This document shows, in pieces, positions 16,686 to 45,052 of a stretch of 45,052 nucleotides of DNA (its first letter is position 1; each line of letters starts with the position of its first letter). The DNA is from a bacterium (GTDB lineage Bacteria > Zhuqueibacterota > Zhuqueibacteria > Zhuqueibacterales > Zhuqueibacteraceae). The stretch is taken from positions 1 through 45,052 of the forward strand of contig JBIOXB010000154.1 in assembly GCA_044869275.1 (NCBI GenBank), read 5' to 3'. The position numbers are program-made.

Positions 16686-19600
16686 CCGAGTTAAGGAGCC
16701 ATAATTCCTCGTTTGAGAGTGAGTTAGGGCTCCTTTTTGTTTCTTAGAAATTGCTTCGCAGATTGCTTCCCATTACGATTTCTGTTTCGGAACTGACACG
16801 GCTCGTGTTATCACAGTTTTTTTAACTTGACATTGATCTCATATATAAGATATATTTTTTTCCAACAGAACCATTCTCATGAAATTGTCTCCCTTTGCGT
16901 GCGATCAATCACGTTGGGGAGAACGACTTGGGGAAGACAGAAGCGCCCGGTGCCTCTGTAATTGCCGCCGCCCGCTTGTGCCATCCCGACCGAATCTAGA
17001 ATACCTGATGGTAGTGAGGTCGGAATGCTCATTTGTCTTTTTGTTGTGATTCTCCCAGCTTTATGCTGGCTTCCAGGGGATACCTCGGCCTCGCCTGAAA
17101 TTCCTCCGCAAATTCTGAAACAAACACTCCTCCGCATATCACGCATCCTTTTAATAATTTTCACCAAAATCTTTCAAGCAGAATGTCCAAACACCAGCTG
17201 GAAATCCGGCATTTGTTGGTCGCGCTGCTGGGACGCACGTCACAGGTCTTGACCGAGCCGTTTTATGCCCTGTGGGTGAAGGCCGGCATACGCATTTCGG
17301 AAGTCTCGGCCATTCGGCTTCTGAGCAGTGCTTGCGTTCGAATGATAATCGCATATTCGACAGCGCGCAGGAGCAAGTAGAGTTGGTTCAAGTTTCGTGT
17401 TATTCTCCCTGCTTCACAACGATCACCGCAAATTTTGGATTAGTTGATGAAACATCATCTGCTGGCACTATTGGGCTTGCATCCCAAGGTACTGACCGAG
17501 ACTTTGTACGGTTTGTGTGTGAAGCGAGGCGTCGCCATTTCGAATGTGATTGGCATTGCGAGTGCGGTGGCGAAGCAGAAGATCGTTTCTGAACTATTGC
17601 ATCCCGTCAGGGGTGAATATTACAAACTGTGCCGCGAGTACCCCGAGTGTTTCGACGGCATTCAGTTCGCGCCAGATAGTGTGCGGGTGGCCCACCTCGA
17701 AGGGGAAGAGATTGCCGACATCGCCAACTCGCGCCAAAGCCAGGCCTATTTGGATTTGATCATGGCGACCGTGATGGAAATAACGGCACACAAAGAGGTT
17801 TGCTTGCACACCGTCGTTGCCGGCGGCAGGCGCACAATGAGCGTATATCTCGCCATGGTGATGCAACTTTTGGCACGGCCGCAGGATCGTATGTATCACT
17901 TGTTCGTCGAGCCCTGGGAGGCGGAAACAAATTCAGGATTCTATTTTCCAACTGCAAAGTCGCATCCCATGACCACATACGAAGGCATGGCGTTCGACGC
18001 CAAAACCGTCTTAGTGGAGCTGGTGGAAGTGCCTTTCTTGCGCTTGCGGCCGCGCGTGCCCGCAGAAGTGCTAGCCTCGTTCAACTATCGGGACATTTTG
18101 CAATGGGTTCAACGCGAAGTGGAAGTCGCACCGCCTTTGTTGCCGCTGCGCATTGACCCCGATCATCATCGCATCACGATTGGTGCGATTCCCATCTCCA
18201 TGCAGCCCGTGGAACTGGCGGTTTACTGGTATTTTGCCGAGAAGAGCGGCCGGCGACCCAAGAGTGCGCCGCGTGAAGCATATTCCAGTTATTTCGAGAA
18301 GCCCATAGCAGATGGCTGCTTTTCCCGTCAGATGTCCGCGCGCCTGAAGAAATTATATGATACTTTGTTGCCACGCGACCAAATGCGCCAGCGTTTTTCC
18401 AGCGCTTTCAACAAAGAAGGCCGCATCGATTTGGAGTATCTGCGCCCGCATTTCAGTAACATCAAACGCAAAATCAGCGAGAAATTTCCGGAAGAGGATT
18501 TCAATCGCTGGTACCTCATCTCCGCCATTGGCCCGCGCGGAGATACGTGCTATGGCATTCGGCTGGACCGGGAGTTTATCCGGCTGCCAGAGGCAAGGTT
18601 GTGATAAGGTTGGGAGGGTTGGCGCTAATCCTTCGACGAGATAAATTGGCCTGATGGTCTCGTGACAGAGGCAGTGATAATCATTTGTCTTATTCATTTC
18701 AAACGAGGCAGAAATGGCACGTTATGGAGAGAAAGAGCTCGGGGCGAAAGAGCTGACGAGCATTCTTGAAGCAACTGCACAGTATTGGCGAGACTGGAAT
18801 CCGAAAGCATTCGTTGGGTCGCTGGAAAAATATATCACAACCCTGCTCCCTCTTGAGCTTGAAGCAGTGCGCAAAATTGAAGCGGCTCGCAAGGAGGAGG
18901 GCAAGCGCCTGCCAGATGATTCTGAAAAAGCAGACACGTTGGTGCTGCTGGTTGGCTTCTCATTCGAGCCATTGTTGCAGTCCGTGTGCGCTTACAAACC
19001 GAAAAAGGTTTTACTGGTGCTGAATGAAAACTACTCGGATACTGTTGATGGCCAGATGTTCGGTGATTGGCTTACAAAATCGATCAGAAAATTGCCTGCC
19101 GATCTGTTGCCGGAGCAGCCGGAGGAGATCGGAGCGCTGGAGATAAATGAAGCGACAGGAGAAGAACAGTTTATCACTCAACCGGCGCAGCCCGAAAAAG
19201 TCTTTCAATTCTTGATTGACCAGTTGCTGCGCAAACCCGGCAATGACGCCCCGCAAAACGGCAGAATCGCTATCGACATTACCGGCGCTAAGAAGAGCAT
19301 GGTGACCGGCGCATATCTCTTTGGCGCGCTCACCAACTGCACGATTTCCTACGTTGATTTCGACGCGTACGAGCCGGAGCGTTTTCGCGCCTATGGTTAC
19401 TCTTGCAGAATTGGCAAAATCGGTAACCCCTATCATTCCTTTCGCATTTCCAATTGGCATCGAGTGCAAGAACGGTATAATCACTATGCGCTCGGGGAGG
19501 CCGCAAAGTTGCTCGGTGAAATTATTTCAGATTTTAAGAAAACAAAATTGTTTGAACGGGAAGATAAAAAAGACGAGATAAACGAGCTGCTCAAGCTCAG

Positions 19601-43600: not shown

Positions 43601-45052
43601 TAGTAAAGTGGTAGAGACGGCTTAACTCATTTCTTGGTTAGTCACTTCAGGTCCACCGGTAAAGATACCATGCTGCAAGCTATTATGAAAAATAAGGAAA
43701 GCAGATTAACTTTTGATTTTTCGCGCACCTGTAAGCCACAATTGCATATTCATGCAGATGATGATTATTGTGATTAAACGAATGAATAATAGCTGGTTGT
43801 GGCAGATAGAACGATTACCTATTGAAAACTTGTGAATTGCGCCATGAATTCCACTTTCCTAAGAAAATTAAGTGGGGAAAAAATCGGGGCTTTGCATCTG
43901 CCCTTAAAATGGCTTAATAGAAATAGTGGATTAAAGTGGCGGAATTTGACCGCGGATGAGAAGTACCCCAAAGCACGAAGTGCATTGAAACGTGCCCACA
44001 TTTTTCCTCCTTGACCGTGTGCATCCGATGAGAAGTACCCCAAAGCACGAAGTGCATTGAAACTTGTGTGTGCCCGGGGCCACAGACGTGTGCATCCGGA
44101 TGAGAAGTACCCCAAAGCACGAAGTGCATTGAAACGGTGGCCACCCCTGTCCTCACCAGCCATACCATTGGATGAGAAGTACCCCAAAGCACGAAGTGCA
44201 TTGAAACAGGAAACCGCTTCCTCTCGAGTGCGCCACCATCCGGATGAGAAGTACCCCAAAGCACGAAGTGCATTGAAACAAATCTGTGCGATGACTTCTT
44301 CCCGTGCCCACATTTGATGAGAAGTACCCCAAAGCACGAAGTGCATTGAAACGTACTTCCTGCCACGCGAGGTTGTTTCGCCAATGGATGAGAAGTACCC
44401 CAAAGCACGAAGTGCATTGAAACCAGGTTCGTGTTGCCACGAAACCTGCCTTTTTTGGATGAGAAGTACCCCAAAGCACGAAGTGCATTGAAACCCGTAA
44501 TCGAATCCTGGGGGACCGCTTGGGGGGCGTACGATGAGAAGTACCCCAAAGCACGAAGTGCATTGAAACATAGCTACTTCCACCTGAGCAGTTACATGTT
44601 TTGCGATGAGAAGTACCCCAAAGCACGAAGTGCATTGAAACTCATGTCTCCTTATAACGGCCAGACAGGGGCCTATGATGAGAAGTACCCCAAAGCACGA
44701 AGTGCATTGAAACTCAACTTTGTGTCCGAAGAATAAGCTTGGACGGAGATGAGAAGTACCCCAAAGCACGAAGTGCATTGAAACTTCACCACAACAACAC
44801 TTTCATTGCCAACAAAAACGATGAGAAGTACCCCAAAGCACGAAGTGCATTGAAACCCACCGCAAGGACATGCCATAAAAGCTCCTTTTTTAGATGAGAA
44901 GTACCCCAAAGCACGAAGTGCATTGAAACCCGCCACCTTTTAGTGGCGGCAGAGTTGGATTGTGGATGAGAAGTACCCCAAAGCACGAAGTGCATTGAAA
45001 CCAAAAAATCATCACCGTGTGCAGTGCCGGGGTGTGTGATGAGAAGTACCCC

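What a model noticed while it worked through the whole genome (the two positions that open the first line are those of the whole stretch)
17447..45052. Type III-D-like CRISPR-Cas effector whose two large Cas7-insertion subunits each carry an N-terminal cold-shock domain
The only CRISPR-Cas locus is a type III-D-like system (Cas10 without HD, Cas7-Csx10 fusion, double Cas7/Csx7, Csx19) in which two paralogous TIGR03986 RAMP subunits (802 and 833 aa) each begin with an intact cold-shock domain, with a HEPN-like 320-aa gene between them and CARF-HEPN, Csm6-like and a minimal 200-aa SAVED gene around. Boldest reading: the cold-shock domains are built-in single-stranded RNA clamps on the Cas7 backbone that melt and feed structured target transcripts into the effector, a target-capture module not described for any CRISPR effector. 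The fusion is widespread in metagenomes, so it would define a distinct III-D sub-variant.
Evidence so far: NCBIfam/Pfam scans: g03058 Cas10/Cmr2 palm2 (GGDD present, call 64), g03059 RAMP + Csx10 4e-17, g03060 Csx7 3e-44, g03061 Csx19 3.5e-5, g03062 and g03064 TIGR03986 4e-126/1e-118 starting at residue ~100-120, preceded by Pfam CSD 2e-9/9e-11; KGYGFI / KKFGFI RNP1-like motifs. g03057 CARF-like N-terminus and R-x4-H motif; g03063 RHEFVH. Of the best 120 homologues of g03064 (549 at E<=1e-3) most list PF00313 beside PF03787; phmmer with the free-standing cold-shock protein g00123 finds a CSD in 47 of the 120, N-terminal in 43. Array: 37-nt repeat, >=15 repeats at C154 43.9-45.05 kb, continuing on C203 1-990; stand-alone group-II-like RT, Cas1, Cas2 at 39.4-42.0 kb. 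'TIGR03986' occurs in 1 paper ( [...]
(Added by a program. Inside this text positions count along the whole contig: contig position 1 is position 1 of the stretch shown here. "Call 12" and the like, gene names such as g00115 and contig names such as C1 are that model's own, and its searches are not shown. The text may have been shortened before it was handed on; [...] marks where a part breaks off. The agent that wrote the report below was given it as the finding of a first reader that could run no searches.)

Follow-up and report, generated by a model that had tools for sequence, protein, structure and literature searches.

The report
Cold-shock domains on CRISPR cap subunits
An RNA-targeting CRISPR system of a known kind (type III-Dv) has here two copies of its end-cap protein, each carrying a small cold-shock RNA-binding domain on a flexible tether, an add-on that is common in relatives but that nobody seems to have studied.

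Summary
Window 17.4-45.05 kb is one CRISPR-Cas locus on the + strand. It is collinear with the structurally solved Synechocystis type III-Dv system: Cas10 without HD, Cas7-Cas5-Cas11, Cas7-2x, Csx19, Cas7-insertion. The Cas7-insertion (TIGR03986) cap is present twice (802 and 833 aa, 41% identical). Each copy starts with a Pfam-significant cold-shock domain (CSD), joined by a roughly 25-30-residue linker that is modelled as disordered in the 833-aa copy.

This is a variable accessory domain of III-Dv, not a new III-D sub-variant. It is canonical, degenerate, replaced by a Lys-rich tail, or absent in different branches of the family. The two window copies are not sisters. Copy 1 belongs to a small clade that usually carries a rare 300-aa Rx4H (HEPN-like) gene directly downstream. 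Copy 2 belongs to another clade and is followed by a mini-SAVED gene. One metagenome locus (L103) also has two CSD-bearing caps.

Best reading, inferred and untested: each CSD is a tethered single-stranded-RNA catcher beside the crRNA 3' seed, and the two paralogues are alternative caps.

The III-Dv papers call the N-terminal 112 residues "uncharacterized" and could not see them. I found no paper naming a CSD there. This scan had already noted the same fusion in another genome (e1-5672377).

The parts
17444..18604 (+). CARF-only protein (NE0113/Csm6-family, PADLOC CARF5), 386 aa; probable cOA sensor or ring nuclease
   Evidence: NCBIfam TIGR02584 1.4e-39, Pfam Cas_NE0113 1.9e-34; PADLOC CARF5--CARF 9.4e-70
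18714..20570 (+). Csm6/Csx1-type CARF-HEPN ribonuclease, 618 aa; stop overlaps the cas10 start
   Evidence: PADLOC CARF1--CARF_HEPN 6.6e-96 over residues 18-604. Atlas Cas02710/Csm6 clusters, score 0.97. RNSAVH motif. A homologue lies upstream of cas10 in 39 of 44 genome loci with enough upstream DNA.
20567..22318 (+). Cas10 without HD domain, GGDD palm intact, 583 aa
   Evidence: Pfam Cas10-Cmr2_palm2 2.1e-14; LILGGDDIF in the sequence; only PDB sequence hit is 8s9t_C, the III-Dv Cas10, 2.8e-9
22315..24783 (+). Cas7-Cas5(Csx10)[-Cas11] fusion, 822 aa
   Evidence: Pfam RAMPs at 13-215; NCBIfam Csx10 at 273-509, 4.1e-17, sub-threshold. Only PDB hit is 8s9t_A 'Cas7-Cas5-Cas11', 3.2e-12. The Cas11 part is inferred from length and synteny only.
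24780..26648 (+). Cas7-2x (double Cas7/Csx7), 622 aa
   Evidence: NCBIfam Csx7 3e-44; Pfam RAMPs, two stretches; PDB 8s9t_D Cas7-2x 1.4e-17
26766..27527 (+). Csx19-like subunit, 253 aa
   Evidence: NCBIfam TIGR03984 3.5e-5, 23.5 bits, below the 35-bit cut-off. No PDB sequence hit. Same position as csx19 in pSYSA. Homologues in 61 of 71 genome loci.
27520..29928 (+). Cas7-insertion cap, copy 1 (P0001, 802 aa): CSD 1-70, linker about 71-100, TIGR03986 body
   Evidence: TIGR03986 422.6 bits; Pfam CSD 37.4 bits at 3-69; KGYGFI / LFCHI motifs; falls in an 8-row clade with 99% support
29972..30934 (+). 320-aa coiled-coil plus Rx4H (HEPN-like, RiboL-PSP-type) protein (P0124)
   Evidence: RHEFVH, with R233/H234/H238 invariant or nearly so in 34 relatives. 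Seven of 34 hit HEPN_RiboL-PSP at E<=0.01. Forty-six representatives in 1.84 billion proteins. Homologues lie directly downstream of the cap in L011, L031, L087 and L097.
30950..33451 (+). Cas7-insertion cap, copy 2 (P0002, 833 aa): CSD 1-66, disordered linker 70-91, TIGR03986 body
   Evidence: TIGR03986 398 bits; Pfam CSD 41.9 bits. AF2 pLDDT 90.9 with linker below 50. Foldseek 8s9t_E 2.6e-46, TM 0.82, plus cold-shock proteins.
33463..34083 (+). stand-alone mini-SAVED sensor, 206 aa, no effector domain
   Evidence: Pfam SAVED 5.1e-15. PADLOC matches only the C-terminal SAVED part of SAVED-Lon, -TIR and -nuclease fusions. A homologue follows the cap in L010.
34269..34895 (+). 208-aa ORF of unknown function inside the locus
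   Evidence: no Pfam or NCBIfam hit
35280..36122 (+). Cas6
   Evidence: Pfam CRISPR_Cas6 4.5e-18
36545..38902 (+). two ORFs of unknown function (306 and 339 aa)
   Evidence: no family hits
39372..41957 (+). adaptation module: stand-alone group-II-intron-like RT, Cas1, Cas2
   Evidence: TIGR04416 3.8e-75 (below cut-off), Cas1 1e-82, Cas2 8.3e-15
43955..45052 (+). CRISPR array: 15 identical 37-nt repeats ending ATTGAAAC, spacers 34-38 nt, running off the contig
   Evidence: continues on contig C203

Best explanation
This is a type III-Dv CRISPR-Cas locus. Cas10 (palm only), Cas7-Cas5-Cas11, Cas7-2x, Csx19 and one Cas7-insertion cap assemble on a crRNA. They recognise RNA, cut it, and make cyclic oligoadenylate. 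The signal is read by the CARF-HEPN, CARF and SAVED genes in the operon.

What is special is the cap. It is encoded twice, by two genes from different Cas7-insertion lineages. Each copy carries an N-terminal cold-shock domain on a roughly 25-30-residue disordered tether.

In the solved complex, the cap holds the last six crRNA bases as the exposed seed where target pairing starts. I therefore read the CSD as a tethered, sequence-unspecific catcher of single-stranded RNA. It would raise the local concentration of transcript next to the seed and keep it single-stranded.

I read the two paralogues as alternative caps that give two flavours of complex on one shared backbone. They are not stacked in one complex.

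Shown: the identity of every part, the CSD fold, the disordered tether, and the distribution. Inferred: RNA binding by the CSD, its role in target capture, and the alternative-cap model.
For: Identity:
- Gene-by-gene collinearity with pSYSA.
- The III-Dv entry 8s9t is the only PDB sequence hit for Cas10 and Cas7-5-11, the top hit for the cap, and the second hit for Cas7-2x, after the III-D2 chain 9wxh_D.
- Foldseek to 8s9t_E: 2.6e-46, TM 0.82.

CSD:
- Pfam scores 37.4 and 41.9 bits against a 27-bit cut-off.
- AF2 gives five strands at pLDDT 91-96, then residues 70-91 below 50.
- rmsd 1.5-1.8 A over 66-67 aligned columns to CspE, Bc-Csp and CspA.
- RNP1 is kept: KGYGFI and KKFGFI, against KGYGFI in the genome's own free cold-shock proteins.

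Place:
- The papers put the unseen N-terminal 1-112 residues at the 'head' of the complex, opposite the insertion domain.
- That insertion domain exposes the 6-nt crRNA 3' seed (10.1101/2022.06.13.496011 and PMC11026444, passages).

Selection for an N-terminal appendage:
- 104 of 121 family members have a CSD-like N-domain.
- 73 of 120 have one by the independent Pfam annotation.
- In the Chloroflexota second copies it is replaced by a Lys/Arg-rich tail, which is also a typical RNA binder.

Alternative caps:
- The solved complex has one copy of each subunit, and the cap diverts the crRNA 3' end out of the filament.
- Both window copies keep most seed-cradling residues. Synechocystis F307, I355, I453, D616, F767 read F, I, I, D, F in copy 1 and I, I, V, D, F in copy 2.
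- Spacers are 34-38 nt, as in Synechocystis (34-46).
- The two copies come from different clades.
Against: - There is no binding or activity data for any CSD-bearing cap.
- The domain is dispensable over evolutionary time. Seventeen of 121 members lack it, and 14 have a degenerate form without the aromatic RNP residues.
- The Synechocystis model complex works in vitro with an N-domain that shows no CSD signal.
- A delta-104 truncation of that domain was made, but the preprint's sentence on its effect is self-contradictory. Its Supplementary Fig. 13 was not readable here.
- Copy 2 has a non-canonical RNP2: LHFKL in place of VFVHF.
- CSDs bind ssDNA as well as RNA.
- Long-lived tandem pairs with different N-termini in Chloroflexota could mean that both caps act in one assembly.
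Confidence: 0.5

Rival explanations
1. The CSD binds the crRNA itself: either the 3' part of the precursor during assembly, or the trimmed 3' end. On this reading it is a loading or ruler device that fixes crRNA length, not a target catcher.
For: The cap is the subunit that holds the crRNA 3' end, and III-Dv crRNA has one fixed length of 37 nt (PMC11026444 passages). The tether is long enough to reach RNA leaving the insertion domain.
Against: The solved complex holds and sizes its crRNA without any visible N-domain. Family members without the domain (17 of 121) sit in otherwise identical operons.
Confidence: 0.15
2. The CSD is a localisation or regulatory module. It could dock the complex on nascent or untranslated transcripts or on the RNA-decay machinery, or it could tune activity with temperature, as free cold-shock proteins do.
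For: Free CSPs act as RNA chaperones and antiterminators; NCBIfam CspE and CspD models hit both domains. In Synechocystis the III-Dv system responds to environmental conditions and its leader transcript interacts with the CrhR RNA helicase (10.1101/2023.12.07.570523; title and start of abstract from a search listing only).
Against: Nothing in the locus points to temperature control. This reading overlaps largely with the best explanation, and sequence alone cannot separate them.
Confidence: 0.15
3. The CSD is a near-neutral passenger: an old fusion that is decaying, with no important role today.
For: There are repeated losses, degenerate forms that lost the aromatic residues, and one frameshifted copy in L051. 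The Synechocystis N-domain is unrecognisable as a CSD.
Against: Canonical RNP1 (G-F-I invariant in 21 of 21 aligned canonical domains) is kept across phyla at 30-45% overall identity. Both window copies, which are 41% identical and from different clades, keep it. AF2 models the domain in the 833-aa copy as confidently folded.
Confidence: 0.15
4. Both Cas7-insertion paralogues sit in the same particle, one stacked on the other or one on each side. The effector would then be a longer or two-headed complex.
For: Tandem pairs are frequent and old: 19 of 71 genome loci and 4 of 46 metagenome loci. The Chloroflexota second copies form one clade with 100% support. The partners carry different N-termini, which suggests non-redundant roles.
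Against: In the solved complex the cap ends the filament by pulling the crRNA 3' end aside. Spacer length here is not longer than in Synechocystis. The pair in the window has a different clade composition from the Chloroflexota pairs.
Confidence: 0.2

Closest known systems
Synechocystis sp. PCC 6803 type III-Dv effector (pSYSA; PDB 8s9t/8s9u; PMC11026444 and preprint 10.1101/2022.06.13.496011)
   Same: Same gene order and the same five subunit types. Cas10 lacks HD and has GGDD. The repeat is 37 nt. The cap is a TIGR03986 protein of about 800 aa with an N-terminal extension of about 100 residues before the NPYNF motif. CARF accessory genes flank the operon.
   Different: - The cap is single in Synechocystis and double here.
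- The Synechocystis N-domain gives no CSD signal: nothing in Pfam up to E 10, hhalign probability 0.4% and 10%.
- There is no homologue of the 618-aa CARF-HEPN upstream of cas10.
- The gene after the cap is a Cas_APE2256 CARF protein, not an Rx4H or SAVED gene.
Type III-E Cas7-11 / gRAMP (Cas7.4 with insertion; e.g. 7wah, 8gs2)
   Same: The body of both window caps matches the C-terminal Cas7-with-insertion part: NCBIfam III-E gRAMP 7e-54 and 2e-54, Foldseek 1e-33.
   Different: III-E is one fused polypeptide without Cas10 or Cas5. It has no CSD, and it recruits a TPR-CHAT protease.
Type III-D2 (Cas7x3, Cas7-5, Cas10, CorA; PMC13294483)
   Same: A related fused-subunit III-D effector. Its Cas7x3 chain 9wxh_D is the second kind of TIGR03986 chain hit in the PDB.
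   Different: Cas7x3 is a triple fusion. Signalling is by SAM-AMP to CorA. None of these features is present here (introduction read).
Free bacterial cold-shock proteins (CspA/CspB/CspE; PF00313)
   Same: Same fold and length, same RNP1 motif, and 35% identity to this genome's own cold-shock proteins.
   Different: Here the domain is fused by a disordered linker to a 700-aa CRISPR subunit. RNP2 is altered, mildly in copy 1 and strongly in copy 2.
CSD fusions in other defence systems: CoCoNuT CnuB/McrB (PMC11090510) and the retron Se72 effector (NCBIfam NF038236)
   Same: An N-terminal CSD-like OB fold on a defence protein predicted to act on RNA (passages read). The Se72 effector model hits copy 2 at 9e-7.
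   Different: These are unrelated effector machineries, and neither is guided by crRNA.

Membership tests
Type III-Dv CRISPR-Cas effector | Cas10 lacking the HD nuclease domain but with a GGDD cyclase palm | tested here: met
   Palm2 2.1e-14. GGDD present and no HD N-terminus in the 583-aa sequence. Only PDB hit is 8s9t_C.
Type III-Dv CRISPR-Cas effector | Cas7-Cas5(Csx10)-Cas11 fusion subunit | tested here: inconclusive
   The Cas7 (RAMPs 5e-15) and Csx10 (4e-17, 62 bits, cut-off 177) parts were found. 8s9t_A matches residues 11-309 only. The Cas11 part rests on length and synteny.
Type III-Dv CRISPR-Cas effector | Cas7-2x double-Cas7 subunit | tested here: met
   Csx7 151 bits against a 108-bit cut-off; two RAMP stretches; 8s9t_D 1.4e-17
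Type III-Dv CRISPR-Cas effector | Csx19 subunit | tested here: inconclusive
   23.5 bits against a 35-bit cut-off. No PDB sequence hit. Correct syntenic position.
Type III-Dv CRISPR-Cas effector | Cas7 with large insertion (TIGR03986) as terminal subunit | tested here: met
   422.6 and 398 bits against a 161-bit cut-off; fold match to 8s9t_E with TM 0.82
Type III-Dv CRISPR-Cas effector | One gene, and one copy per complex, of each subunit | tested here: not met
   The window has two Cas7-insertion genes. Stoichiometry in the particle cannot be tested here.
Cold-shock domain (PF00313) | Pfam score above the gathering threshold over the whole domain | tested here: met
   37.4 and 41.9 bits (cut-off 27), profile positions 2-64 of 66; 41.6 and 46.8 bits on the isolated N-termini
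Cold-shock domain (PF00313) | Five-stranded beta-barrel superposable on solved CSPs | tested here: met
   Copy 2 only: strands 3-10, 15-20, 25-29, 47-55 and 58-66; TM 0.83-0.86 and rmsd 1.5-1.8 A to 3i2z_B, 1c9o_A and 1mjc
Cold-shock domain (PF00313) | RNP1 (K-G-[FY]-G-F-I) and RNP2 (V-F-V-H-F) nucleic-acid-binding motifs | tested here: inconclusive
   RNP1 is kept in both copies (KGYGFI, KKFGFI). RNP2 reads LFCHI in copy 1 and LHFKL in copy 2, against VFVHF/Y in the genome's own CSPs.
Cold-shock domain (PF00313) | Binds single-stranded RNA or DNA | not testable with these tools
   needs EMSA or anisotropy with the purified domain
HEPN ribonuclease (RiboL-PSP type), for the 320-aa gene | Conserved Rx4-6H motif | tested here: met
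   RHEFVH. H238 is invariant and R233 and H234 are at least 90% conserved in 34 relatives.
HEPN ribonuclease (RiboL-PSP type), for the 320-aa gene | Family model above its threshold | tested here: not met
   16.6 bits against a 28.4-bit cut-off. Seven of 34 relatives reach E<=0.01, best 2.4e-5.
HEPN ribonuclease (RiboL-PSP type), for the 320-aa gene | HEPN four-helix fold | tested here: inconclusive
   AF2 model pLDDT 94.6. In both fold searches the N-terminal coiled-coil hairpin filled the hit lists, so the C-terminal domain was not searched alone.
Csm6/Csx1 CARF-HEPN, for the 618-aa gene | CARF N-domain plus HEPN C-domain with Rx4H | tested here: met
   PADLOC CARF1--CARF_HEPN 6.6e-96 over residues 18-604; RNSAVH motif; atlas Cas02710/Csm6 score 0.97
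SAVED sensor, for the 206-aa gene | SAVED domain above threshold, and a fused effector domain | tested here: met
   The SAVED domain is met: 56.1 bits against a 26.2-bit cut-off. A fused effector is absent. The protein is SAVED only and matches only the C-terminal part of fusion models.

The most novel reading that the evidence does not exclude
The cap position of type III-Dv is a swappable module. Different Cas7-insertion lineages bring their own RNA-catching N-terminal appendage (cold-shock domain, degenerate barrel, or Lys-rich tail) and their own dedicated partner gene. This genome runs two such modules on one backbone. The rare coiled-coil Rx4H protein, found only next to copy-1-type caps, would then be physically recruited to that cap, as Csx29 is to Cas7-11. 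That would give a target-RNA-gated nuclease arm that does not depend on cyclic-oligoadenylate signalling.
Probability: 0.12. Interest if true: 0.75.

Novelty: new variant of a known kind. Interest (0 to 1): 0.52.

Why it matters
How type III complexes find their targets in folded, ribosome-covered transcripts is poorly understood. III-Dv is the one subtype in which a seed held by the cap subunit has been shown. A canonical RNA-chaperone fold tethered next to that seed, present in most relatives of this cap, gives a concrete and cheap experiment: compare delta-CSD and wild-type complexes on structured and unstructured targets.

It also gives a name to a domain that the structural papers could not see. 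The recurring double caps (19 of 71 genome loci) and the lineage-bound Rx4H gene suggest modularity at the head of the complex. That could matter for engineering compact RNA-targeting tools derived from III-D and III-E.

If the CSD proves dispensable, the finding reduces to an annotation note.

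Tried and rejected
- Complex prediction, cap copy 1 (residues 103-780) with the 320-aa protein: no verdict. 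It is not used as evidence either way.
- Fold searches with the 320-aa model: Foldseek found nothing at E<=0.001. VIA-wide returned only coiled-coil look-alikes for residues 1-155.
- Sequence search of the PDB with the 618-aa, 320-aa and Csx19 proteins: no hits.
- Is the Synechocystis N-domain a hidden CSD? Pfam finds nothing up to E 10. hhalign probability is 0.4% against the canonical profile and 10% against the degenerate profile, limited to a 20-column beta-hairpin. This is not shown.
- Split forms: I searched all 72 loci and the window for free-standing CSD ORFs. The only hit was the front half of a frameshifted CSD in L051.
- Is the 280-aa RNEAMH protein between the Chloroflexota cap pairs related to the 320-aa family? 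hhalign probability is 0.1%. The two share only the motif type.
- A metagenome scan with the 320-aa family found no relative. The word-based search found 2. The exhaustive search found 46 representatives.
- The maximum-likelihood tree did not finish in the time allowed. The trees quoted are FastTree with SH-like support, and the position of the long-branch row L103_second is unsure.
- Type III-D2 and III-E membership: considered and rejected. There is no Cas7x3 or single-polypeptide effector, no CorA and no TPR-CHAT in the operon.

Full report
WHAT IS THERE. From 17.4 kb to the end of the window, one strand carries a tightly packed CRISPR-Cas locus. Family scans give this gene order:
- a CARF-only NE0113 protein (17444-18604);
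- a 618-aa protein that Pfam and NCBIfam miss, but that PADLOC places in CARF-HEPN at 6.6e-96, with an RNSAVH motif (18714-20570);
- Cas10 without HD but with GGDD (20567-22318);
- a RAMP-Csx10 fusion (22315-24783);
- a double Cas7 (24780-26648);
- a weak Csx19 (26766-27527);
- a TIGR03986 protein of 802 aa (27520-29928);
- a 320-aa gene (29972-30934);
- a second TIGR03986 protein of 833 aa (30950-33451);
- a 206-aa SAVED-only protein;
- Cas6, three unknown ORFs, a stand-alone RT, Cas1 and Cas2;
- an array of 15 identical 37-nt repeats ending in ATTGAAAC. The array continues on another contig.

From the 618-aa gene through the SAVED gene, start and stop codons overlap or lie 12-118 nt apart, so these genes look like one operon. 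The genome has one cas1 and no other TIGR03986 gene.

IT IS TYPE III-Dv. The order Cas10, Cas7-Cas5-Cas11, Cas7-2x, Csx19, Cas7-insertion is that of Synechocystis plasmid pSYSA. Chains of the III-Dv cryo-EM entry 8s9t are the only PDB sequence hit for Cas10 and for the Cas7-Csx10 fusion. They are the top hit for the cap and the second hit for the double Cas7, after the III-D2 chain 9wxh_D. The AF2 model of the 833-aa protein (pLDDT 90.9) matches 8s9t_E at E 2.6e-46 and TM 0.82, then Cas7-11.

From passages of PMC11026444: the complex has one copy of each subunit and makes cOA that activates Csx1. The Cas7-insertion subunit caps the filament and pulls the crRNA 3' end aside, exposing six bases as the seed. 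So the subtype and its mechanism are known.

THE COLD-SHOCK DOMAINS ARE REAL. Both caps begin with a Pfam CSD that covers the whole model, at 37.4 and 41.9 bits against a 27-bit cut-off. The model of the 833-aa copy has five strands in residues 3-66 at pLDDT 91-96, followed by residues 70-91 below 50. That domain superposes on CspE, Bc-Csp and CspA at 1.5-1.8 A.

I aligned both CSDs with two free cold-shock proteins of the same genome. RNP1 is kept: KGYGFI and KKFGFI, against KGYGFI. RNP2 is mildly changed in copy 1 (LFCHI) and strongly changed in copy 2 (LHFKL), against VFVHF/Y.

HOW COMMON, AND IS IT KNOWN.
- Of the 120 listed homologues of the 833-aa protein (549 in all), 73 carry PF00313 in the precomputed annotation (hand count).
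- Profiles built from the family itself find a CSD-like N-domain in 104 of 121 proteins. Fourteen of these fit a degenerate form better, and 17 have none, one of which is a fragment.
- The degenerate form has lost the aromatic RNP residues (GxI in place of GFI, YxFN in place of FxH). It is still homologous to the canonical form: hhalign 97%, E 1.2e-10.
- In 71 loci from species-representative genomes I found 82 cap genes. Of the 71 with an N-terminus of 40 or more residues, 23 hit Pfam CSD at E<=0.01, 19 of them above threshold. The other 11 N-termini are 6-37 residues long.
- Hosts are mostly Chloroflexota, with some Acidobacteriota, Bacillota, Thermodesulfobacteriota, Pseudomonadota and one archaeon.
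- Among 40 relatives of this genome, only two (G009, G012) have a close full-length homologue, each apparently as a single copy. The 38 negatives include two genomes flagged as unpublished, G001 and G014.

On the tree the CSD occurs in most clades, next to degenerate or missing forms. It is therefore a variable accessory domain and does not mark a sub-variant.

Literature searches for 'cold shock' or 'cold-shock' together with type III-D, Cas7, RAMP, type III CRISPR or OB-fold found no paper that describes the fusion. Searches for TIGR03986 and for Cas7-insertion did not find one either. The 2025 classification paper contains neither 'cold' nor 'CSD'.

The III-Dv papers say that residues 1-112 of the Synechocystis cap form a 'small, uncharacterized domain' on one side of the head, unseen in the map. 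That domain gives no CSD signal. The preprint also mentions a delta-104 truncation, but its sentence is self-contradictory. It says the residues were removed because they 'were necessary for cleavage'.

THE DOUBLE CAP. The two window copies are 41% identical and are not sisters.
- Copy 1 lies in an 8-row clade (99% support) with Acidobacteriota and metagenome sequences.
- Copy 2 lies in another clade with its 67-79%-identical metagenome relatives (FastTree only).

Tandem caps are common: 19 of 71 genome loci and 4 of 46 metagenome loci. The Chloroflexota pairs are built differently. Their first copy has a degenerate barrel or no N-domain. Their second copies form one clade (100% support) and mostly have a Lys/Arg-rich disordered N-terminus instead.

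Apart from the window, only metagenome locus L103 has Pfam-detectable CSDs on both copies, at 26.2 and 56.5 bits. Its backbone proteins are the closest to the window's among the loci I fetched: Cas7-2x 65% and Cas6 63% identical. Its second copy joins the base of the Chloroflexota second-copy clade on a long branch.

So double caps arose at least twice. Both window copies keep most residues that cradle the seed in Synechocystis (alignment-dependent), and the spacers are not longer than usual. Together with the filament-ending role of the cap, this favours alternative caps over a stacked pair. Only biochemistry can settle it.

THE GENES AFTER THE CAPS. The 320-aa protein has a long coiled-coil hairpin followed by a helical domain (AF2 pLDDT 94.6). 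Its RHxxVH motif is conserved in 34 relatives. The family is rare: 46 representatives among 1.84 billion proteins. Seven of 34 members touch the RiboL-PSP HEPN model. A HEPN fold could not be confirmed.

Homologues of this protein lie directly downstream of the cap in L011, L031, L087 and L097. All of these caps belong to the copy-1 clade. In that clade the gene is seen in five of the seven loci whose context I could read, and it is seen in no other locus.

Elsewhere the slot after the cap holds:
- a SAVED gene (the window's copy 2, and L010);
- a TIR protein (L103);
- a CARF protein (Synechocystis);
- an unrelated RNEAMH protein between the Chloroflexota pairs.

The simplest reading is an accessory-effector slot at the end of the operon. 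A physical link between the cap and the Rx4H protein is possible but unsupported.

MECHANISM AND VERDICT.
- Shown: the subtype, the fold, the tether in the modelled copy, the distribution, and the separate origins of the two caps.
- Inferred: the CSD binds single-stranded RNA and, from its place at the head next to the exposed crRNA seed, helps catch and hold transcripts. The Lys-rich tails that replace it in other lineages fit the idea that this N-terminus is a site for unspecific RNA binding.
- Against: the frequent loss and decay of the domain, the CSD-less model system, the altered RNP2 in copy 2, and the absence of any assay.

I file this as a new variant of a known kind. It is moderately interesting, directly testable, and already seen once by this scan.

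Noticed in passing
window 11694-14312 and 9209-11968: A CHASE2-CHAT protease-like protein (CHAT 1.4e-35; the PADLOC SAVED_CHAT model hits the CHAT part at 6e-13) sits 3 kb upstream of the CRISPR operon. It is preceded by a TPR/transglutaminase-like 919-aa protein. Whether they belong to the defence locus is unknown.
   Followed up: no
window 40291-40350, 40454-40492, 41511-41569, 41960-42023, 42666-42705, 43258-43297: Short tandem arrays with 7-, 14- and 21-nt periods (units such as GATCGTA or GGGCAGA) fill the gaps between RT, cas1, cas2 and the next ORF, and the stretch before the array. They look like heptanucleotide intergenic repeats. Their function is unknown.
   Followed up: no
window 34269-34895, 36545-37465, 37883-38902, 42051-42650: Four ORFs inside the CRISPR locus (208, 306, 339 and 199 aa) have no significant family in Pfam, NCBIfam or PADLOC. 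The 199-aa ORF has a faint MotA/ExbB-like hit, E 0.008.
   Followed up: partly
window 8624-9190: A stand-alone PD-(D/E)XK nuclease-family gene (PDDEXK_3, 2.3e-21) lies among surface-protein genes upstream of the locus.
   Followed up: no
L009 10808-11632, L025 12173-12976, L026 12163-12972: In Chloroflexota loci with two caps, a 275-282-aa protein with a conserved KKRNEAMHP (Rx4H) motif and weak Pfam HEPN hits lies between the two cap genes. It shows no detectable relation to the window's 320-aa protein.
   Followed up: partly
L055 12235-13704, L056 12237-13688, L057 5820-7280: Another set of double-cap loci has a conserved protein of about 485 aa with no Pfam family between the two cap genes.
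   Followed up: no
L103 10845-11594: The one other locus with CSDs on both caps is followed by a 250-aa TIR-domain protein (TIR_2, 2.6e-27), in the slot where the window has a SAVED-only gene.
   Followed up: no
L051 9814-10168: The CSD of this Chloroflexia cap gene is split by a frameshift. The front half sits in a 73-codon frame upstream and the back half at the start of the cap ORF. This is either decay or an assembly error.
   Followed up: no
preprint 10.1101/2022.06.13.496011, section on the single-polypeptide design: The text says the N-terminal 104 residues of the Synechocystis cap were removed because they 'were not observed ... and were necessary for cleavage'. This contradicts itself. 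A delta-104 construct exists (pPF3206), but its result is in a supplementary figure I could not read.
   Followed up: partly
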